Source: a virus (lineage: Duplodnaviria; Heunggongvirae; Uroviricota; Caudoviricetes). From it: 31,683 nucleotides of DNA. The stretch lies in IMG/VR virus record IMGVR_UViG_2711768054_000002. One strand, given 5' to 3'. This document shows positions 5,959 to 26,271 of the stretch, piece after piece (position 1 is the first letter of the stretch; each line of letters opens with the position of its first letter). The translations under genes were made by a program, and so were the position numbers. The notes under the pieces were generated by a model, which saw only the letters and a program-made list of their open reading frames with translations, searched no databases and had not been told where the DNA came from.

Positions 5959-7281
5959 ATGAGTGCGTTAAGGGATGAAGTATCTATGAAGGTTGCGTTC
6001 TCTAATGGCATGATAAACAAATTATGCAAAAGTTTTTTTTATAGTCATGGTAAGGAGCAGCCTTGTATTCAAGTCGGTAAAGCATTAGAAGATTTTGCTT
6101 TTTGGCTTGCATATAATGATGAGGAGATTGCAAAATGTGCTAGTAGGTTATTAAAAGCATATGGCCCCCAATTAGGTATAAGTGACCTTCACAATGCGAA
6201 AAGATTATTGTTAGGTTTTTGTTCTGAAGCCTTCAATCGCATTGATGCTGATTTTCTGTCGCTTAATCCTGATAAGATTTGTGTTGATGATATTATAACG
6301 CAAGTTCATAGAAAAAATCTTAGTGAGATGTTTAAGTATTATATACTTTCACGAATAAAATCCTGTCCGTATATTTATAATCTTGGGTGTGCTGGCTTTG
6401 ATGGGAAGCTTGAGCTTAGAGAAAATTTATTTTTATATGGCCCGGGGCTAGGGGTGGAATTACTTTCTGATATTAAAGACAAAACTGACATCAAGGTTCC
6501 TGTTGATTTTTATGATGATGAATATATGCGGCATAAACCAATTGGGAAATATTTTCGACAGTCAAAATCCTGCTTGGTGGTGGCATATGCTTCATCAGAG
6601 GATAAAGCGGTGAAAATGTTTGATAGTTTGTTTGGAGCTTTATGTCTTGCGGTTGATAATCCTTTTGCGATTAATCGAGTTGCTGTTAATAATCTAGTTG
6701 AGTCTTTTGGTGTCGGGAAATATCATGAAAGTGAGTTTCGGGTGAATATTCCGTCTGTATATAATTTAAATATAACGGATTCAGCCTTGGCGATACTTAC
6801 AAAAATACTTTCATCACCTGATAAAAGGATGTTGTCTGCTCTTTCCTTTATAGCGCACGGGTGGAGGGATGACAAACGTGAAAGGTTTTTGAATCAATTT
6901 ATAGCATTGGATGCTATGTATGGAACCAATAATGGTAATAAAAATTCAATTATTGGCGGTGTTTGCAGAGATGCGGCGAAAATTATTGATATTGATTCAA
7001 AAATAGGAATAATCTATGAGCTTAGGTGTAAGTTTGTTCATGGAGATATTTCATCGTTATCTGATAATGATAGCTATCGAAAGTTTATTGATAGCTATGG
7101 CGTGGACCCTATTGTTTCTCTTTTTGAAATTCTTAAAGAATGCGTCCTTAATTATAATGGTACTTACAAAACGCCAAAAGATGTTGGAAAGGCAGATAGG
7201 TCTATTTGCGTTCCTGCTGAGTTGCTTCCAGCGGTTGAGAGGATGATAGCGGAATACAGTGGAGTTAAAAAAACAAACTAA
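5959..7281 (+). CDS. Hypothetical 440-aa cargo protein in the A-Q variable region; R-x4-H (HEPN-like) motif
   Basis: Clean ATG with AAGGA SD; visibly AT-rich relative to flanking phage genes; occupies the P2 tin/old position; motif ELRCKFVHGD at residues 355-364 (nt 7021-7050); no Walker A motif, so not Old-like. Confidence 0.75.
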   Translation: MSALRDEVSMKVAFSNGMINKLCKSFFYSHGKEQPCIQVGKALEDFAFWLAYNDEEIAKCASRLLKAYGPQLGISDLHNAKRLLLGFCSEAFNRIDADFLSLNPDKICVDDIITQVHRKNLSEMFKYYILSRIKSCPYIYNLGCAGFDGKLELRENLFLYGPGLGVELLSDIKDKTDIKVPVDFYDDEYMRHKPIGKYFRQSKSCLVVAYASSEDKAVKMFDSLFGALCLAVDNPFAINRVAVNNLVESFGVGKYHESEFRVNIPSVYNLNITDSALAILTKILSSPDKRMLSALSFIAHGWRDDKRERFLNQFIALDAMYGTNNGNKNSIIGGVCRDAAKIIDIDSKIGIIYELRCKFVHGDISSLSDNDSYRKFIDSYGVDPIVSLFEILKECVLNYNGTYKTPKDVGKADRSICVPAELLPAVERMIAEYSGVKKTN

Positions 7282-7685: not shown

Positions 7686-8687
7686 ATGAGTATTATAATT
7701 GATGAGTCAAATGAAAAAAATAATGGGGTTAATAGTGGGTTACCTGCTTCTCGGGATATTAATACTAGCATTCGTATTTATCAGCAAATTTATCAACATA
7801 TAACGGGAACAACAGAAACAATAAGGCAGAGAACCTCTGAGAATTTACTTATAAATATCGATGAGATAAGAAGCGTTCATCAAAAAATAAATCAATTGTG
7901 TGATGTTCATAATATTATATCGAAAAATGAAACGGTAACTATTTTACATTCAAAAGATAGAAAGGAACAGTTTACCTCTTTTGATAAGTTTGCAATGTCG
8001 AGTAGTGCGGGAAGTAGTCCAACAATTAGTGTAATTTTAAAATATAACTTTGCAATTTTATCGACAGGGGCATCATTACCTAACCACTATGAAGTTACTG
8101 TTAAATTAGCATCAAGAATTGCTATGCAGAAAGAAATGGAAGAAGATGCGCCACCTTTCATTAGGGGGCGTTTTGTTGCATTCATGCTCACCAGTTCAGC
8201 AGAAATAGTTGTTGAATATGCTGATTATGTAGTGGCTAGAGGTTTTATCGAAGCATTTAAAGAATGGGTTGAAGGATGTCAAAGAGTTACAAACAAAATA
8301 CCATTGATACAGCAAGCTCAAAGGATATCGTATTTAATTCCACTGATTATGCGGTTTTCTTTTTCTATATTGATTTTAAGTTATGCACTGTACAATGTTG
8401 GTGAATATATTGATATTGGTGATAAAGAAAGGTTAGTAAAATTTTTAATGCTCTTTCTTGGTGCGTTTTCTATTATCCCATTGTTAGCGGAGCATTTAGG
8501 TGAAGGCCTAGAGAGATTAATTGATGGTTATACTCCAGCATCGTACATTGTATTAAATAAGGGTGATGAGAGGTTGTATGATGAATATAGTAAGAAGCGA
8601 AAGAAGAGTATTTTAAGAGTGGTGTTAAATATAGTTTCAACAGTTGTTCTAGGTATTGTTTCAGCTAGGCTGGACAAATTATTATAA
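7686..8687 (+). CDS. Hypothetical 333-aa membrane cargo protein between cos and Q
   Basis: ATG with AGGA SD; very AT-rich (about 32% GC on one line counted by hand); soluble N-terminal domain, then three hydrophobic segments (ISYLIPLIMRFSFSILILSYALY, LVKFLMLFLGAFSIIPLL, ILRVVLNIVSTVVLGIVSA). Confidence 0.75.
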   Translation: MSIIIDESNEKNNGVNSGLPASRDINTSIRIYQQIYQHITGTTETIRQRTSENLLINIDEIRSVHQKINQLCDVHNIISKNETVTILHSKDRKEQFTSFDKFAMSSSAGSSPTISVILKYNFAILSTGASLPNHYEVTVKLASRIAMQKEMEEDAPPFIRGRFVAFMLTSSAEIVVEYADYVVARGFIEAFKEWVEGCQRVTNKIPLIQQAQRISYLIPLIMRFSFSILILSYALYNVGEYIDIGDKERLVKFLMLFLGAFSIIPLLAEHLGEGLERLIDGYTPASYIVLNKGDERLYDEYSKKRKKSILRVVLNIVSTVVLGIVSARLDKLL

Positions 8688-20558: not shown

Positions 20559-22568
20559 ATGAGCACAAAATTCAGAACCGTTATCACCACTGCCGGTGCA
20601 GCAAAGCTGGCAGCGGCAACCGCACCGGGAGGGCGGAAGGTCAACATTACCACGATGGCCGTCGGGGATGGCGGTGGTAAATTGCCTGTCCCGGATGCCG
20701 GACAGACCGGGCTTATCCACGAAGTCTGGCGACATACGCTGAACAAAATCAGCCAGGACAAACGAAACAGTAATTATATTATCGCAGAGCTGGTTATTCC
20801 GCCGGAGGTGGGCGGTTTCTGGATGCGTGAGCTTGGCCTGTACGATGATGCGGGAACGTTAATTGCCGTGGCGAACATGGCCGAAAGTTATAAGCCTGCC
20901 CTTGCCGAAGGCTCAGGGCGTTCGCAGACCTGCCGCATGGTCATCATCGTCAGCAGTGTGGCCTCAGTGGAGCTGACTATTGACACCACAACGGTGATGG
21001 CAACGCAGGATTACGTTGATGACAAGATTGCAGAGCATGAACAGTCACGACGTCACCCGGACGCCTCGCTGACCGCAAAAGGTTTTACTCAGTTAAGCAG
21101 TGCGACCAACAGCACGTCTGAAACACTGGCCGCAACGCCGAAAGCGGTAAAGGCCGCGTATGACCTGGCTAACGGGAAATATACCGCACAGGACGCCACC
21201 ACAGCGCGAAAAGGCCTTGTCCAGCTTAGTAGCGCCACCAACAGCACGTCTGAAACGCTCGCCGCAACACCAAAAGCCGTTAAGACGGTAATGGATGAAA
21301 CGAACAAAAAAGCGCCATTAAACAGCCCTGCACTGACCGGAACGCCAACGACGCCAACTGCGCGACAGGGAACGAATAATACTCAGATCGCAAACACGGC
21401 TTTCGTTATGGCCGCGATTGCCGCCCTTGTAGACTCGTCGCCTGACGCACTGAATACGCTGAACGAGCTGGCGGCGGCGCTGGGCAATGACCCGAATTTT
21501 GCTACCACCATGACTAATGCGCTTGCGGGTAAGCAACCGAAAGATGCTACCCTGACGGCGCTGGCGGGGCTTGCTACTGCGGCAGACAGGTTTCCGTATT
21601 TTACGGGGAATGATGTTGCCAGCCTGGCGACCCTGACAAAAGTCGGGCGGGATATTCTGGCTAAATCGACCGTTGCCGCCGTTATCGAATATCTCGGTTT
21701 ACAGGAAACGGTAAACCGAGCCGGGAACGCCGTGCAAAAAAATGGCGATACCTTGTCCGGTGGACTTACTTTTGAAAACGACTCAATCCTTGCCTGGATT
21801 CGAAATACTGACTGGGCGAAGATTGGATTTAAAAATGATGCCGATGGTGACACTGATTCATACATGTGGTTTGAAACGGGGGATAACGGCAATGAATATT
21901 TCAAATGGAGAAGCCGCCAGAGTACCACAACAAAAGACCTGATGACGTTGAAATGGGATGCACTAAATATTCTTGTTAATGCCGTCATTAATGGCTGTTT
22001 TGGAGTTGGTACGACGAATGCACTAGGTGGTAGCTCTATTGTTCTTGGTGATAATGATACCGGATTTAAACAGAATGGAGACGGTATTCTTGATGTTTAT
22101 GCTAACAGTCAGCGTGTATTCCGTTTTCAGAATGGAGTGGCTATTGCTTTTAAAAATATTCAGGCAGGTGATAGTAAAAAGTTCTCGCTATCCAGCTCTA
22201 ATACATCCACGAAGAATATTACCTTTAATTTATGGGGTGCTTCCACCCGTCCAGTGGTTGCAGAGTTAGGCGATGAGGCCGGATGGCATTTCTATAGCCA
22301 GCGAAATACAGATAACTCGGTAATATTTGCTGTTAACGGTCAGATGCAACCCAGCAACTGGGGAAATTTTGATTCCCGCTATGTGAAAGATGTTCGCCTG
22401 GGTACGCGAGTTGTTCAATTGATGGCGCGAGGTGGTCGTTATGAAAAAGCCGGACACACGATTACCGGATTAAGAATCATTGGTGAAGTAGATGGCGATG
22501 ATGAAGCCATCTTCAGGCCGATACAAAAATACATCAATGGCACATGGTATAACGTTGCGCAGGTGTAA
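20559..22568 (+). CDS. H: Tail fibre protein H
   Basis: 669 aa as in P2 gpH; internal peptide repeat; C-terminal part visibly lower in GC (mosaic receptor-binding end). Confidence 0.92.
   Translation: MSTKFRTVITTAGAAKLAAATAPGGRKVNITTMAVGDGGGKLPVPDAGQTGLIHEVWRHTLNKISQDKRNSNYIIAELVIPPEVGGFWMRELGLYDDAGTLIAVANMAESYKPALAEGSGRSQTCRMVIIVSSVASVELTIDTTTVMATQDYVDDKIAEHEQSRRHPDASLTAKGFTQLSSATNSTSETLAATPKAVKAAYDLANGKYTAQDATTARKGLVQLSSATNSTSETLAATPKAVKTVMDETNKKAPLNSPALTGTPTTPTARQGTNNTQIANTAFVMAAIAALVDSSPDALNTLNELAAALGNDPNFATTMTNALAGKQPKDATLTALAGLATAADRFPYFTGNDVASLATLTKVGRDILAKSTVAAVIEYLGLQETVNRAGNAVQKNGDTLSGGLTFENDSILAWIRNTDWAKIGFKNDADGDTDSYMWFETGDNGNEYFKWRSRQSTTTKDLMTLKWDALNILVNAVINGCFGVGTTNALGGSSIVLGDNDTGFKQNGDGILDVYANSQRVFRFQNGVAIAFKNIQAGDSKKFSLSSSNTSTKNITFNLWGASTRPVVAELGDEAGWHFYSQRNTDNSVIFAVNGQMQPSNWGNFDSRYVKDVRLGTRVVQLMARGGRYEKAGHTITGLRIIGEVDGDDEAIFRPIQKYINGTWYNVAQV
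21079..21300 (+). repeat. Imperfect tandem repeat inside H (two copies of about 90 nt)
   Basis: Peptide QLSSATNSTSETLAATPKAVK occurs twice about 30 aa apart; DNA copies share ACCAACAGCACGTCTGAAAC. Confidence 0.8.
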
Positions 22569-22571
22569 GTT

Positions 22572-23099
22572 ATGCAGCATTTAAAGAACATTAAGTCAGG
22601 TAATCCAAAAACAAAAGAGCAATATCAGCTAACAAAGAATTTTGATGTTATCTGGTTATGGTCCGAAGACGGAAAAAACTGGTATGAGGAAGTGAAGAAC
22701 TTTCAGCCAGACACAATAAAGATTGTTTACGATGAAAATAATATTATTGTCGCTATCACCAGAGATGCTTCAACGCTTAATCCTGAAGGTTTTAGCGTTG
22801 TTGAGGTTCCTGATATTACCTCCAACCGACGTGCTGACGACTCAGGTAAATGGGTGTTTAAGGATGGTGCTGTGGTTAAACGGATTTATACGGCAGATGA
22901 ACAGCAACAACAGGCAGAATCACAAAAGGCCGCGTTACTTTCCGAAGCGGAAAACGTTATTCAGCCACTGGAACGCGCTGTCAGGCTGAATATGGCGACG
23001 GATGAGGAACGTGCACGACTGGAGTCATGGGAACGTTACAGCGTTCTGGTCAGCCGTGTGGATCCTGCAAATCCTGAATGGCCGGAAATGCCGCAATAA
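22572..23099 (+). CDS. G: Tail fibre assembly chaperone G
   Basis: 175 aa as in P2 gpG; directly follows H. Confidence 0.9.
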
Positions 23100-23368
23100 G
23101 TTGTATGACCTCTGTTGTGAACTTACATATCTATGGCACAGAGTAAAGCCTAATCTGACAGTCCGCTCTGTGCCAGAAGCGGACGTTGCGGGACGTCAGA
23201 TATCTAAAAAAACTAATGGTCCGCTTGGATAGATACTTACACAGGATGCAATAAAGAGTTTCTATTTCTTTGTGGTAGCAAACTTTGATTTCTGAAGGAT
23301 AATACCTCCAATAAGTTGAAATCACATATATCGCTAAAGACTCTATACAACAACCAAGAGAGACCGCA

Positions 23369-24754
23369 ATGGATAGTGTCAGTAGTGTTGAGCGTTTAAG
23401 AACAAAAGCTTTTTATCAGTTGCTTGTGGATAGGCTTGGAACTGAGGCCTGGGCTGCTCGCAAAGCTGCATATTTCAAGCGCATAAGAGAGAAGGAGGCT
23501 AAGTTTAACATCAATCTGCCGATAGAGCCCCAGCTCTTCATACCAGCAGAAGATGACATCGACTGGTACATTCTGGCGTCGTATCTGTCTCATGATTTTC
23601 CATATAGTGATGCTACTTACAGCAGCAGACGTATCTACCCCTATGCTATGGCCATCGGAGCTGTTGCAGACCAGCTTCGCAAAGTCCCATACGTCGATGA
23701 TGTTCTGGACAAAATGCTAGCAAATAACAATAAACCAGAAACTCAAATTTTTGAGCTGCTGACGGCATCGTTCTACCTAAAGAACGGCTATGAGGTTGCC
23801 TTCATCCCAGAAAGCAGCATTGTTTGGCCCGATGGAAAGACCAAAAAATCACCGGATATGCTTGTCAAGTTAGGTGATCTGGAGTTCTACGTCGAGTGCA
23901 AAAGGTCGGATAAGCAAACCAAGTACTCAAAGACAGAAGAGCAAGCCTGGGCCAACATCTGGCATCAATTGAGCCAACATATGCTCAAAGTCGCACCATG
24001 GAACATTGTCGATATAATTTTCCATGAGCAGGTCGCCAGTGTGACTCCGGCAGACGTTATTAAAGCGGTGAATCTAGCCATTAAAGGGGGGACGGGAAAA
24101 GCTAATGAAGGTTCAATCAGTGTGGGAATACGAGCCATCGACAAATTAGGTCTCAGACGTCACTACAGAAAATTTTCAGTCAGAGCCAATAGCCCACAGC
24201 ATGAATTGCTGGTATTTGGGGATCTAGATAGCAATGAGAAACGAAGTATCTCGACTATCGCTCAGAGAGTTATTCGTCCTGGCACCAATAACGATATTCT
24301 CAACATTTTTGTAGAGGATGTTGCAAAGTGCGTTGGAGCTCAGTGGCGCTGCGATCATGAGATTTCTCTTGGCCTCAGATCCAAGCATTTCAAGAGCTTG
24401 CTCAATGATGGAGTCATGCAGATTCCCCCTGATCGTGCTGGCGTGGTGCATATTTGGTATGAGACTTGCGAAGGCATAGATATTGAAGAACTACGTAGGG
24501 ATAAAAACATGGAGCATATCTCGGCCTACGATGCCTCTAAAACAACTGTGTTGGGTGCTTTCCTGCATGCCGTTAATTATTACCCATTAGAGGACAACTA
24601 TGAGTGGGCTGAGACTGTTCAAGACTTTGCCCGTGTCCCGGATTTGATGGGGCTCTTCCTTAGACAGCCATTGATGCTTACATCTGACTCGACGCGTGGG
24701 GTCGAAGGTGTCACACATTGGGAGCAAGATAAGGCCGCAAAAAGCATGCGTTGA
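23369..24754 (+). CDS. Hypothetical 461-aa cargo protein in the Z/fun position; PD-x(n)-E-x-K nuclease-like motif
   Basis: Lies between G and FI where P2 carries Z/fun; lower GC than the tail genes; motif SPD(163)MLVKLGDLE(172)FYVE(176)CK(178) at nt 23849-23902. Confidence 0.75.
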   Translation: MDSVSSVERLRTKAFYQLLVDRLGTEAWAARKAAYFKRIREKEAKFNINLPIEPQLFIPAEDDIDWYILASYLSHDFPYSDATYSSRRIYPYAMAIGAVADQLRKVPYVDDVLDKMLANNNKPETQIFELLTASFYLKNGYEVAFIPESSIVWPDGKTKKSPDMLVKLGDLEFYVECKRSDKQTKYSKTEEQAWANIWHQLSQHMLKVAPWNIVDIIFHEQVASVTPADVIKAVNLAIKGGTGKANEGSISVGIRAIDKLGLRRHYRKFSVRANSPQHELLVFGDLDSNEKRSISTIAQRVIRPGTNNDILNIFVEDVAKCVGAQWRCDHEISLGLRSKHFKSLLNDGVMQIPPDRAGVVHIWYETCEGIDIEELRRDKNMEHISAYDASKTTVLGAFLHAVNYYPLEDNYEWAETVQDFARVPDLMGLFLRQPLMLTSDSTRGVEGVTHWEQDKAAKSMR

Positions 24755-24957
24755 AAGTGGCTGGAATATGGCGATACTGGGAACATAACTATTCACCGCG
24801 TTTCATAACCCACTCTCGGCTGATTAACACACGTTATCGTTGGGGGAAAGGACCAATTCCCTACGTCCGCTCCTCGCTCCAAGCAGACTGTCAGATTTGA
24901 TAGCGTTTTGGCTATGTAAATTGTCAGTCGTAAAATTAGTGAGTACAAATCAGGACA

Positions 24958-24984
24958 GGTGGGCGAATTGCCCGCCTTTTCTTT
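24958..24984 (+). terminator. Candidate rho-independent terminator at the end of the Z/fun-position island
   Basis: GGTGGGC-GAATT-GCCCGCC stem-loop (one G-U pair) followed by TTTTCTTT. Confidence 0.5.
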
Positions 24985-25080
24985 ATCTGTTGTTTCATCC
25001 ACTGACCAGCCAGGTCAAATAGCGTCTCATGTACTACCCAACGGAAAATAGTTGCACCCATTAACCACGGAGTTAAACGG
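24985..25080 (+). promoter_or_regulatory. Expected late promoter region for the FI operon
   Basis: By synteny with P2; contains dyad TGACC-N5-GGTCA (25003-25017); no exact TGT-N12-ACA found. Confidence 0.4.
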
Positions 25081-26271
25081 ATGAGTGACTATCATCACGG
25101 CGTGCAGGTGCTGGAGATTAACGACGGCACCCGCGTCATTTCCACCGTATCCACGGCCATTGTCGGCATGGTCTGCACGGCCAGCGATGCGGATGCGGAA
25201 ACCTTCCCCCTCAATAAACCGGTGCTGATCACCAATGTGCAGAGCGCAATTGCAAAGGCCGGTAAAAAAGGCACGCTGGCGGCATCGTTACAGGCCATCG
25301 CCGACCAGTCAAAACCGGTCACCGTTGTCGTGCGTGTGGAAGACGGCACCGGCGACGACGAGGAAACGAAACTCGCGCAGACCGTTTCCAATATCATCGG
25401 CACCACCGACGAAAACGGTCAGTACACCGGACTGAAAGCCCTGCTGGCGGCGGAGTCGGTAACCGGTGTTAAACCGCGTATTCTCGGTGTGCCGGGACTG
25501 GACACCAAAGAGGTGGCTGTTGCACTGGTATCCGTCTGTCAGAAGCTGCGCGCTTTCGGGTATATCAGCGCATGGGGCTGTAAAACCATTTCCGAGGTGA
25601 AAGCCTACCGCCAGAATTTCAGCCAGCGTGAGCTGATGGTCATCTGGCCGGATTTCCTCGCATGGGATACGGTCACCAGTACCACCGCCACCGCGTATGC
25701 CACCGCCCGTGCGCTGGGTCTGCGCGCTAAAATCGACCAGGAGCAGGGCTGGCATAAAACGCTGTCCAACGTCGGGGTAAACGGTGTTACCGGCATCAGC
25801 GCATCTGTATTCTGGGATTTGCAGGAGTCCGGCACCGATGCTGACCTGCTTAACGAGTCAGGCGTCACTACGCTGATTCGCCGCGACGGTTTCCGATTCT
25901 GGGGTAACCGTACCTGCTCTGATGACCCGCTGTTCCTCTTTGAAAACTACACCCGCACCGCGCAGGTGCTGGCCGACACGATGGCTGAGGCGCACATGTG
26001 GGCGGTGGACAAGCCCATCACCGCAACGCTGATTCGCGACATCGTTGACGGCATCAATGCCAAATTCCGTGAGCTGAAAACAAACGGCTATATCGTGGAT
26101 GCGACCTGCTGGTTCAGCGAAGAATCCAACGATGCGGAAACCCTCAAGGCCGGAAAACTGTATATCGACTACGACTATACCCCGGTGCCTCCTCTTGAAA
26201 ACCTGACCCTGCGCCAGCGTATTACCGATAAATACCTGGCAAATCTGGTCACTTCGGTTAACAGCAATTAA
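25081..26271 (+). CDS. FI: Tail sheath protein FI
   Basis: 396 aa as in P2 gpFI. Confidence 0.94.
   Translation: MSDYHHGVQVLEINDGTRVISTVSTAIVGMVCTASDADAETFPLNKPVLITNVQSAIAKAGKKGTLAASLQAIADQSKPVTVVVRVEDGTGDDEETKLAQTVSNIIGTTDENGQYTGLKALLAAESVTGVKPRILGVPGLDTKEVAVALVSVCQKLRAFGYISAWGCKTISEVKAYRQNFSQRELMVIWPDFLAWDTVTSTTATAYATARALGLRAKIDQEQGWHKTLSNVGVNGVTGISASVFWDLQESGTDADLLNESGVTTLIRRDGFRFWGNRTCSDDPLFLFENYTRTAQVLADTMAEAHMWAVDKPITATLIRDIVDGINAKFRELKTNGYIVDATCWFSEESNDAETLKAGKLYIDYDYTPVPPLENLTLRQRITDKYLANLVTSVNSN

What the first reader, a model, noticed from the sequence alone, without database searches (positions are those of the whole stretch)
23100..25080. Z/fun-position island encodes a 461-aa protein with a PD-(D/E)xK nuclease signature
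Between G and FI the conserved tail operon is interrupted by about 2 kb of lower-GC DNA carrying one gene (23369..24754). Its product contains SPD163-x8-E172-x3-E176-C-K178 (nt 23849-23902), matching the PD-x(n)-(D/E)-x-K core of restriction-endonuclease-fold nucleases. The Z/fun locus of P2 is a known site of anti-phage determinants. A large single-gene nuclease here is a strong candidate for an uncharacterised defence gene.
Basis: partly seen in the sequence, partly recalled or inferred. Interest (0 to 1): 0.85.

Follow-up and report, generated by a model that had tools for sequence, protein, structure and literature searches.

The report
Uncharacterised stand-alone nuclease in P2 hotspot
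A P2-like prophage carries, in its known "Z/fun" anti-phage hotspot, one mobile gene for a 461-residue protein with a restriction-enzyme-type nuclease core; it belongs to an unnamed family that sits beside defence systems in other bacteria, so it is a good but untested candidate for a new single-gene phage-defence nuclease.

Summary
ORF 23369..24754 (+) encodes 461 aa and carries P162-D163...E176-C-K178 at the stated bases. It lies in lower-GC DNA between the tail-fibre assembly gene G and the sheath gene FI.

The motif alone is weak. What supports it:
- E129, D163, E176 and K178 are invariant or ≥98% conserved in 62 relatives of only 19-54% identity.
- An AlphaFold model (pLDDT 87) puts them on the canonical α-β-β-β-α-β core.

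No Pfam, NCBIfam or PADLOC (2023) model claims the protein, and PHROG 37220 has no known function. The N-terminal helical region and the conserved C-terminal half have no identifiable relative.

The family has no conserved partner gene and is under purifying selection (dN/dS about 0.1). At least 8 of 13 other loci hold known or candidate defence genes within four genes (Lamassu, AbiTii, RmrTA, type I RM).

The gene is cargo of a ~1.75 kb cassette bounded by 35-nt inverted repeats. The same cassette occurs at ≥98.9% protein identity in ICE-like islands and Klebsiella plasmids. It can be stacked with a DUF3800 cassette.

Defence activity, trigger and substrate are untested. I rate it a new variant of a known kind, of moderate interest.

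The parts
23152..23186 (.). Left terminal inverted repeat of the Z/fun cargo cassette. It contains the hairpin GTCCGC-N12-GCGGAC at 23161-23184.
   Evidence: It forms a 35-nt inverted repeat, 83% complementary, with 24863-24897. The exact hairpin pattern occurs once in the window, against 0.01 expected. As DNA it folds at -9.3 kcal/mol, z -2.2. Identity with the same cassette in ICE-like, island and plasmid contexts begins inside it. The equivalent position in P2-EC67 is annotated as 'left inverted repeat'.
23187..23368 (+). Upstream leader of 182 nt that always travels with the gene. It presumably holds the gene's own promoter and ribosome-binding site (inferred).
   Evidence: It is identical, or differs by one base, in E. 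coli ICE-like and island copies and in Klebsiella plasmid copies. The strict sigma-70 scan found no promoter here, so the promoter is not shown.
23369..24754 (+). CDS of the 461-aa protein, including the stop codon.
   Evidence: ORF list. Full-length homologues of 53-99% identity. dN/dS of 0.09-0.17 against homologues. AlphaFold model with pLDDT 87 and pTM 0.87.
23369..23719 (+). N-terminal all-helical region (aa 1-117) of unknown role, with conserved W28, R31, D62, W66, Y67, R88, P91 and G97.
   Evidence: Secondary structure of the model. Conservation in alignment A2. No family or fold match was assignable.
23720..24154 (+). PD-(D/E)xK (restriction-endonuclease-like) nuclease core, aa 118-262. 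Helix 123-138 carries E129, strand 164-168 follows D163, and strand 171-179 carries E176 and K178. Helix 188-208 and strand 212-218 complete the core.
23753..23755 (+). Codon of E129, the conserved acid on helix 1 of the nuclease core.
   Evidence: Invariant in 62 of 62 distant relatives.
23852..23902 (+). Catalytic signature P162-D163 ... E176-C177-K178.
   Evidence: Coordinates verified. D163 is 62/62, E176 61/62, C177 58/62 and K178 61/62 in alignment A2. All are invariant in the 42-member close family.
24155..24751 (+). C-terminal alpha/beta half (aa 263-461) with conserved K/R337, Q351, H361, E365, E373, R376 and E415. Its role is unknown; a sensor or regulatory role, or a second site, is possible (inferred).
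24863..24897 (.). Right terminal inverted repeat of the cassette, with the core GTCCGC-N12-GCAGAC at 24865-24888.
   Evidence: It pairs with 23152-23186. Identity with the cassette copies in other contexts ends here. On its own it is a weak hairpin (-2 kcal/mol).
24957..24977 (+). Terminator-like hairpin followed by a T-run in the conserved P2 backbone. It probably ends transcription coming from the cargo gene and the late V-operon (inferred).
   Evidence: Terminator scan: 9-bp stem with 6 GC pairs, then TTTTCTTT. Conserved in P2, Wphi, P2-EC67 and phage 899.

Best explanation
The gene encodes a stand-alone, metal-dependent PD-(D/E)xK endonuclease of a previously unnamed family. About 514 clusters at 50% identity belong to it, nearly all 430-470 aa with the same three-part architecture. 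It is carried as accessory cargo in the Z/fun defence hotspot of a P2-like prophage.

The most likely role is protection of the lysogen against other phages or invading DNA. The central nuclease core (E129, D163, E176, K178) would cut nucleic acid. The N-terminal helical region and the conserved C-terminal half would keep it inactive or specific until it meets a feature of foreign DNA: a modification, a free end, a branched replication or recombination intermediate, or a phage protein. That would make it comparable to a type IV restriction enzyme or a Shedu-like self-restrained nuclease. No methyltransferase, antitoxin or other partner is needed.

Shown here:
- the ORF, the motif and its deep conservation;
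- the predicted fold;
- purifying selection;
- absence of a conserved partner;
- the location in a hotspot and next to defence genes;
- mobility as a repeat-bounded cassette.

Inferred only: nuclease activity, the defence phenotype, the substrate, the trigger and how self-damage is avoided.
For: The motif and its coordinates are verified. E129 and D163 are 100% conserved, and E176 and K178 98%, across relatives of 19-54% identity. The AlphaFold model (pLDDT 87, pTM 0.87) has the alpha-beta-beta-beta-alpha-beta order with these residues on the expected elements.

The family is broad and of uniform length. Seventeen loci share no partner gene. PADLOC hits lie within four genes in at least 8 of 13 non-P2 loci: LmuACB, AbiTii and a PDC-M14B-like protein; a type I MTase with its S subunit; RmrTA twice; PDC-M68B; and SMC-like ATPases. 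pAsa4 has an AAA ATPase plus a UvrD helicase next to the gene. E. coli A30 has a GIY-YIG protein and a 'restriction endonuclease' next to it.

The Z/fun position is a defence-enriched hotspot holding fun and three validated PD systems (PMC9519451). Sixteen percent of P2 defence systems lie in a hotspot downstream of GpL, within the late tail genes (bioRxiv 10.64898/2026.02.27.708500). In phage 899 the neighbouring DUF3800 gene is a separate repeat-bounded cassette, not an operon partner.
Against: No experiment supports nuclease activity or phage protection. No sequence-level match reaches any curated threshold: the Pfam hit scores 16.5 bits against a 26.1 cut-off, and PADLOC, NCBIfam and PDB profile searches find nothing. 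Foldseek finds nothing at E<=0.001.

I could not inspect model coordinates, so the three-dimensional clustering of E129, D163, E176 and K178 is inferred from topology, not measured. The defence-neighbour count has no background control, and the loci are few and partly related. The defence libraries at hand date from 2023, so a later naming of this family cannot be excluded. Some contexts (plasmid or ICE accessory regions with toxin-antitoxin genes and ArdA) fit 'mobile-element accessory gene' in general, not defence specifically.
Confidence: 0.6

Rival explanations
1. It is a mobile-element accessory nuclease whose benefit is not anti-phage. It might act in competition between plasmids, ICEs or prophages, degrading rival elements or excluding incoming conjugative DNA. 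Alternatively it might act as an addiction or stabilisation function for the element that carries it.
For: Fifty of the 60 plasmid records with a homologue are predicted conjugative. Contexts include ICE or Tra regions with HipA, TacAT and ArdA, a ~111 kb IncFIB Klebsiella plasmid and an ICE-like island with TrbL and VbhA.
Against: The same family lies in chromosomal defence islands next to Lamassu, AbiTii, RmrTA and RM genes, and in a phage hotspot with validated anti-phage genes. No antitoxin-like partner is conserved. Anti-phage and anti-plasmid roles are not mutually exclusive.
Confidence: 0.15
2. It is an orphan or solitary restriction enzyme: a type II-like enzyme whose methyltransferase lies elsewhere, or the nuclease subunit of an RM system.
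Against: No methyltransferase is conserved next to it in 17 loci, and none lies in the cassette, which moves alone between hosts at 99% identity. A sequence-specific REase without a cognate methylase would be lethal on arrival. A modification-dependent (type IV-like) version is already included in the best explanation.
Confidence: 0.1
3. It serves the prophage's own life cycle, for example as a Holliday-junction resolvase or a recombination or repair nuclease, or it acts as an anti-defence factor.
For: The closest local structural and sequence resemblances are to archaeal and viral Holliday-junction resolvases (Hjc, AHJR-like).
Against: Most P2-like phages lack the gene: 42 of the 1157 E. coli genomes that match the island query carry it. 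It occurs outside phages in plasmids, ICEs and chromosomal islands. It is four times the size of Hjc, with two extra conserved regions. It sits in a non-essential hotspot where P2 carries fun(Z), to which it is unrelated.
Confidence: 0.07
4. It is the transposase or homing nuclease of the inverted-repeat-bounded cassette itself, acting like a TnsA- or Rpn-type PD-(D/E)xK enzyme.
For: The cassette has terminal inverted repeats, contains only this gene, and occurs at 99% identity in unrelated contexts.
Against: The same repeat ends bound cassettes carrying unrelated genes: DUF3800, Wphi orf44, P2-EC67 ORF1 and a further cassette in L039. Homologues in Pseudomonas, Aeromonas and Stenotrophomonas have no such ends. 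No Pfam transposase family was hit.
Confidence: 0.05

Closest known systems
PD-(D/E)xK (restriction-endonuclease-like) superfamily. The nearest named families are AHJR-like (PF18743), Hjc (PF01870) and Mrr_cat (PF04471).
   Different: No family model reaches its threshold. The core is embedded in a 461-aa protein between a 117-aa helical region and a ~200-aa conserved alpha/beta half that none of these families has.
Shedu (SduA, DUF4263): a single-gene defence nuclease with a self-inhibiting N-terminal sensor.
   Different: There is no DUF4263 or PADLOC Shedu hit. Here the nuclease is central, not C-terminal, and there is an extra conserved C-terminal half. Oligomeric state and DNA-end sensing are untested.
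Type IV (modification-dependent) restriction enzymes such as Mrr, MspJI and AspBHI.
   Different: No recognisable modified-base-binding domain (SRA or winged helix) was detected, and there is no curated match. Modification dependence is purely hypothetical.
P2 Fun(Z), the cargo at the same position in phage P2, which blocks T5 growth.
   Same: It occupies the same hotspot between G and FI, is non-essential, and is a single gene.
   Different: There is no sequence similarity (BLASTP E 1.7). Fun(Z) is on the opposite strand and is 528 aa.
The PD-T4/PD-T7/PD-Lambda systems of Vassallo et al. 2022, three of which lie in this second P2 hotspot.
   Same: They share the hotspot and the style of discovery: hypothetical proteins with faint nuclease-like motifs.
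   Different: None of the PADLOC models for those systems matches the window protein. One distant relative gives only a noise-level PD-T7-5 hit (E 0.0033).

Membership tests
PD-(D/E)xK nuclease superfamily | Core fold alpha-beta-beta-beta-alpha-beta (restriction-endonuclease-like) | tested here: met
PD-(D/E)xK nuclease superfamily | Catalytic D on strand 2 and (D/E)-x-K on strand 3, conserved across the family | tested here: met
   D163 is 62/62, E176 61/62 and K178 61/62, and E129 on helix 1 is 62/62, in relatives of 19-54% identity.
PD-(D/E)xK nuclease superfamily | Spatial clustering of the catalytic residues around a metal site, and metal-dependent cleavage | not testable with these tools
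AHJR-like REase (PF18743), Hjc (PF01870), Mrr_cat (PF04471) | Score at or above the Pfam gathering threshold | tested here: not met
   AHJR-like scores 16.5 bits against a cut-off of 26.1, E 0.0065. Hjc and Mrr_cat appear only as single weak hits (E 5e-4 and 2.5e-3) in 1-2 of 62 relatives.
Shedu (SduA) | DUF4263 nuclease domain or PADLOC Shedu model | tested here: not met
Known or candidate defence systems in PADLOC-DB v2.0.0 (2023) | Match to any of the 5027 models | tested here: not met
   The window protein matches 0 families at E<=10. Relatives give only scattered single hits at E>=7e-4.
Anti-phage defence gene (functional class) | Enrichment next to known defence genes and location in defence hotspots | tested here: met
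   It lies in the P2 Z/fun hotspot. PADLOC-recognised neighbours lie within four genes in at least 8 of 13 other loci. No background rate was computed.
Anti-phage defence gene (functional class) | Protection against phage on expression | not testable with these tools
   This requires a plaque or efficiency-of-plating assay.
Restriction-modification system | Cognate methyltransferase linked to the nuclease | tested here: not met
   No conserved neighbour of any kind in 17 loci, and the cassette carries only this gene.
P2 Fun(Z) | Sequence homology to Fun(Z) AAD03288 | tested here: not met
   Best BLASTP E-value is 1.7 over 8 residues.

The most novel reading that the evidence does not exclude
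The protein founds a new stand-alone defence family. Its invariant C-terminal cluster (Q351, H361, E365, E415) would be a second functional site, a sensor pocket or a second catalytic centre, that gates the central PD-(D/E)xK nuclease. The gene would spread as one unit of a previously undescribed exchange system: cassettes bounded by 35-nt inverted repeats, each with its own leader. These stack head-to-tail (left end, right end, left end, right end) into integron-like arrays of defence genes, with no recombinase encoded in the cassette, and shuttle between P2 Z/fun hotspots, ICE-like islands, tRNA-linked islands and Klebsiella plasmids.
Probability: 0.25. Interest if true: 0.72.

Novelty: new variant of a known kind. 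Interest (0 to 1): 0.5.

Why it matters
If the protein protects against phage, it adds a compact single-gene nuclease family, not covered by Pfam, NCBIfam or PADLOC-DB v2.0.0 (2023), to the defence catalogue. The family has about 514 clusters at 50% identity. Most members whose organism was identified here are Gammaproteobacteria, with a few plasmid homologues in Agrobacterium and Rhizobium.

Its unusual layout offers a tractable model for a general problem: how a lone nuclease is kept harmless to its host yet lethal to invaders. The nuclease core is flanked by two conserved regions of unknown fold affinity.

The cassette structure may also help explain how P2 hotspots swap cargo so quickly, a process the recent P2/P4 survey (bioRxiv 10.64898/2026.02.27.708500) describes as still to be elucidated. 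If it does not protect, the finding is simply another hypothetical moron gene.

Tried and rejected
**Sequence searches that found nothing useful**
- Pfam, NCBIfam and PADLOC on the protein. The only hit was a sub-threshold AHJR-like match. PHROGs placed it in PHROG 37220, which has no known function.
- Profile searches of PDB sequences, with the full-length alignment and with the nuclease-domain alignment, gave only chance hits.
- Pfam and PADLOC on 62 distant relatives gave only scattered weak hits.

**Structure searches**
- Foldseek against PDB and BFVD found nothing at E<=0.001.
- The afdb50 library was unavailable.
- A separate model of the C-terminal half reached only pLDDT 57, so I did not search with it.
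- hhalign found no internal duplication between the nuclease core and the N- or C-terminal regions.

**Hypotheses tested and rejected**
- DUF3800 as an obligate partner. In phage 899 and about 36 E. coli prophages it lies downstream, but the junction holds a right end plus a left end, so these are two cassettes. Seventeen loci share no partner.
- Homology to P2 Fun(Z).
- An RNA gene in the island: Rfam gave no match at E<=1.
- A strict sigma-70 promoter upstream of the gene: none found.

**Other limits**
- The right repeat is not a stable hairpin on its own (-2 kcal/mol), so I describe the ends as inverted repeats rather than two hairpins.
- Literature searches by accession numbers of family members found no paper.
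- Nilsson et al. 2004 (Mol Biol Evol 21:1), which first described the Z region, is not held in the library.
The close-family scan returned only 9 loci, all Pseudomonas or Stutzerimonas.
Full report
**1. The observation**

The window is a P2-like prophage. It runs from the integrase at 1-996, through early genes and A, to head, tail and tail-fibre genes. ORF 23369..24754 (+) encodes 461 aa.

GC falls to 0.39-0.49 over about 23050-25000, against 0.55-0.60 in FI and in the genes upstream of H. The 3' part of H and all of G are equally low.

The left neighbour (22572..23099) corresponds to gpG and the right neighbour (25081..26271) to gpFI. This holds in Wphi, P2, phage 899 and E. coli prophages.

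The motif alone is weak evidence. The same loose pattern also matches a meaningless site at residue 20, and E172 is not conserved.

**2. What the protein is**

No curated library recognises it:
- Pfam gives only a sub-threshold AHJR-like REase hit (16.5 bits against a 26.1 cut-off, aa 133-204).
- PADLOC-DB 2.0.0 and NCBIfam give nothing.
- PHROGs places it in PHROG 37220, of unknown function.

A word-indexed search found 132 proteins of 53-99% identity. All but a few are about 460 aa, and every one that carries a name is called 'hypothetical'. They come from Escherichia, Klebsiella, Providencia, Aeromonas, Pantoea, Enterobacter, Pseudomonas, Stutzerimonas, Stenotrophomonas, Rheinheimera and Comamonas.

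An exhaustive profile search of 1.84 billion representatives found 514 clusters at E<=0.001. Most are 430-470 aa and match over nearly the full length.

In 62 relatives of only 19-54% identity the conserved positions are as follows:
- Invariant: E129, D163, Q351 and H361.
- At least 90% conserved: E176, C177, K178, Y186, E190, W28, R31, D62, R88, P91, G97, E365 and E415.

An AlphaFold2 model built on 42 homologues is confident (pLDDT 87, pTM 0.87). It shows:
- a helical N-terminal region (aa 3-117);
- helix 123-138 carrying E129, then strand 142-145;
- strand 164-168 preceded by D163;
- strand 171-179 carrying E176 and K178;
- helix 188-208 and strand 212-218, completing the canonical PD-(D/E)xK order;
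- an alpha/beta region extending to about residue 421.

Foldseek finds nothing significant overall. It does give local Hjc matches with probability 0.8-0.9 and rmsd about 2 A, and similar sub-threshold resolvase or VRR-NUC matches in BFVD.

The C-terminal half modelled alone is poor (pLDDT 57), so it is not an autonomous domain. hhalign shows no relation between it and the nuclease core. Sequence-profile searches of PDB are empty.

I could not read model coordinates. The spatial clustering of the catalytic residues is therefore inferred from topology.

The gene is under purifying selection. dN/dS is 0.13 against Pseudomonas sp. GM50, 0.09 against Aeromonas and 0.17 against the Klebsiella plasmid copy.

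**3. Stand-alone or part of a system?**

In phage 899, Yersinia phage GMG73 and about 36 complete E. coli genomes, the same gene is followed by a 348-aa DUF3800 protein. The window and E. coli HCP5S3_I4 lack it.

The junction between the two genes in phage 899 holds a copy of the right repeat followed by a copy of the left repeat (L001 4266 and 4308). These are therefore two independent cassettes in tandem, not an operon.

Clustering the neighbours of 17 loci found no gene family shared beyond closely related islands. The gene behaves as a single-gene module.

**4. Context elsewhere**

| Organism or locus | Neighbours |
|---|---|
| P. aeruginosa | Between a complete Lamassu (LmuA, LmuC, LmuB) and a PDC-M14B-like gene plus AbiTii, in an integrase island |
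| Stenotrophomonas | Follows a type I-like methyltransferase and S subunit |
| Pseudomonas L023, L025 | RmrTA adjacent |
| Pseudomonas L028 | PDC-M68B adjacent |
| Stutzerimonas and Pseudomonas sp. ZH-FAD (L019, L021, L022) | A 957-aa SMC-like ATPase with LmuB- and AriA-like hits, divergently adjacent |
| A. salmonicida pAsa4 | An AAA ATPase plus a UvrD helicase follow |
| E. coli A30 | Between a GIY-YIG protein and an annotated restriction endonuclease, at tRNA-Phe |
| Klebsiella contigs, Aeromonas contigs | ICE or plasmid accessory regions with TacAT, HipA and ArdA |
| Klebsiella ~111 kb IncFIB plasmid | Mostly hypothetical genes, plus a class I SAM-dependent methyltransferase |

At least 8 of 13 sampled non-P2 loci have a PADLOC-recognised protein within four genes. 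I computed no background rate.

The literature supports the locus itself. Vassallo et al. 2022 report a second defence-enriched P2 locus holding fun and three of their validated systems (PMC9519451). The 2026 P2/P4 survey places 16% of P2 defence systems in a hotspot downstream of GpL, within the late tail genes. It also notes that 19% of P2 elements carry only unknown genes at their defence loci (bioRxiv 10.64898/2026.02.27.708500).

No paper naming this protein was found.

**5. The cassette**

The cargo is bounded by 35-nt imperfect inverted repeats at 23152-23186 and 24863-24897 (83% complementary). The same positions are annotated as left and right inverted repeats in the P2-EC67 Z-region record AJ512685.

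Alignments with four other contexts show identity starting inside the left repeat and ending at the right repeat, with unrelated sequence outside. The four contexts are:
- the TW14425/NCTC9038 ICE-like island;
- the A30 island;
- Klebsiella plasmid pKA2-4;
- Klebsiella contig L012.

The 182-nt leader travels with the gene.

A scan of all loci finds left/right pairs around every Enterobacterales copy for which both flanks were available. It also finds left-right-left-right arrays in phage 899, L036 and L039, and a further inverted left/right junction in L041. Pseudomonas, Stutzerimonas and Aeromonas copies show nothing beyond noise.

The gene occurs in 42 of 5426 complete E. coli genomes, always at >=99.6% nucleotide identity. 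That indicates recent horizontal spread.

**6. Mechanism**

The best-supported reading is a stand-alone PD-(D/E)xK endonuclease acting in defence of the lysogen. The central core would cut. The conserved N- and C-terminal regions would restrict activity to foreign nucleic acid or to an infection signal.

Because the cassette arrives alone in new hosts, the enzyme must be harmless to unmodified host DNA. This favours either a type IV-like mechanism (dependent on modification or DNA structure) or a Shedu-like, self-inhibited one. Which of these applies is not determinable here.

The rivals, with their weights, are given in the Rival explanations section:
- an anti-mobile-element or addiction function;
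- an orphan restriction enzyme;
- a phage life-cycle nuclease;
- a cassette transposase.

**7. Comparison and novelty**

The protein works like known single-protein defence nucleases but is not a member of any named family. Every tested membership criterion at family level failed (Pfam thresholds, PADLOC models, Fun(Z) homology). The superfamily-level criteria (fold and motif) are met.

The three-part architecture and the invariant Q351/H361 site have no described counterpart. I rate it a new variant of a known kind.

It is a solid, testable candidate. It is not surprising to a specialist, because P2 hotspots are known to be full of such genes. I set interest at 0.5.

Noticed in passing
window 23152-23186 and 24863-24897; L001 2562/4266/4308/5743; L039 1497/1570/3468; L041 5290/6994/12360/12402: The Z/fun cargo is a discrete cassette bounded by imperfect inverted repeats: a left type GTCCGCTCTGTGCCAGAAGCGGAC and a right type GTCCGCTCCTCGCTCAAAGCGGAC. 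Cassettes with unrelated cargo use the same ends and stack into left-right-left-right arrays. The identical cassette (gene >=99.6% nucleotide-identical in E. coli, 98.9% protein-identical in Klebsiella) sits in ICE-like islands, a tRNA-Phe island and Klebsiella plasmids. No recombinase is encoded in the cassette. GenBank AJ512685 already annotates the repeats.
   Followed up: partly
L001 4435-5481 (phage 899); absent from the window: Most E. coli prophages with this gene carry a second cassette encoding a 348-aa DUF3800 protein (Pfam E 1.4e-5). Retron literature lists DUF3800 as a retron-associated effector domain (PMC7736814). It may be an independent defence candidate.
   Followed up: partly
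window 5959-7281 and 7686-8687: The other P2 hotspot, between replication gene A and portal gene Q, holds two ORFs of 440 and 333 aa. In E. coli X14-3 the identical DNA is annotated as a 'HEPN domain-containing protein' plus a hypothetical protein. This is probably a second defence cargo in the same prophage.
   Followed up: no
window about 21700-23000: The 3' part of tail-fibre gene H and all of G have GC 0.37-0.44, as low as or lower than the island. This fits horizontal exchange of the host-range module, so low GC does not by itself mark the Z/fun cargo.
   Followed up: no
window 24155-24751 (aa 263-461): The C-terminal half has residues conserved across the whole family: Q351 and H361 at 100%, E365, E373, R376, E415 and K/R337. 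It has no detectable relative and does not fold confidently alone. It could be a second active site, a ligand pocket or an interface.
   Followed up: partly
L011 1562 (Wphi left repeat) compared with window 23161-23184: The Wphi left repeat reads GTCCAC...GTGGGC where the window has GTCCGC...GCGGAC. The change on both arms still allows pairing (A-T, plus a T-G wobble), which hints that the stem itself is under selection.
   Followed up: no
L008 3566-9383 (Stenotrophomonas): Here the homologue follows a type I-like methyltransferase and specificity subunit, with no HsdR visible in the 17 kb locus. It might substitute as the nuclease partner in this one lineage.
   Followed up: no
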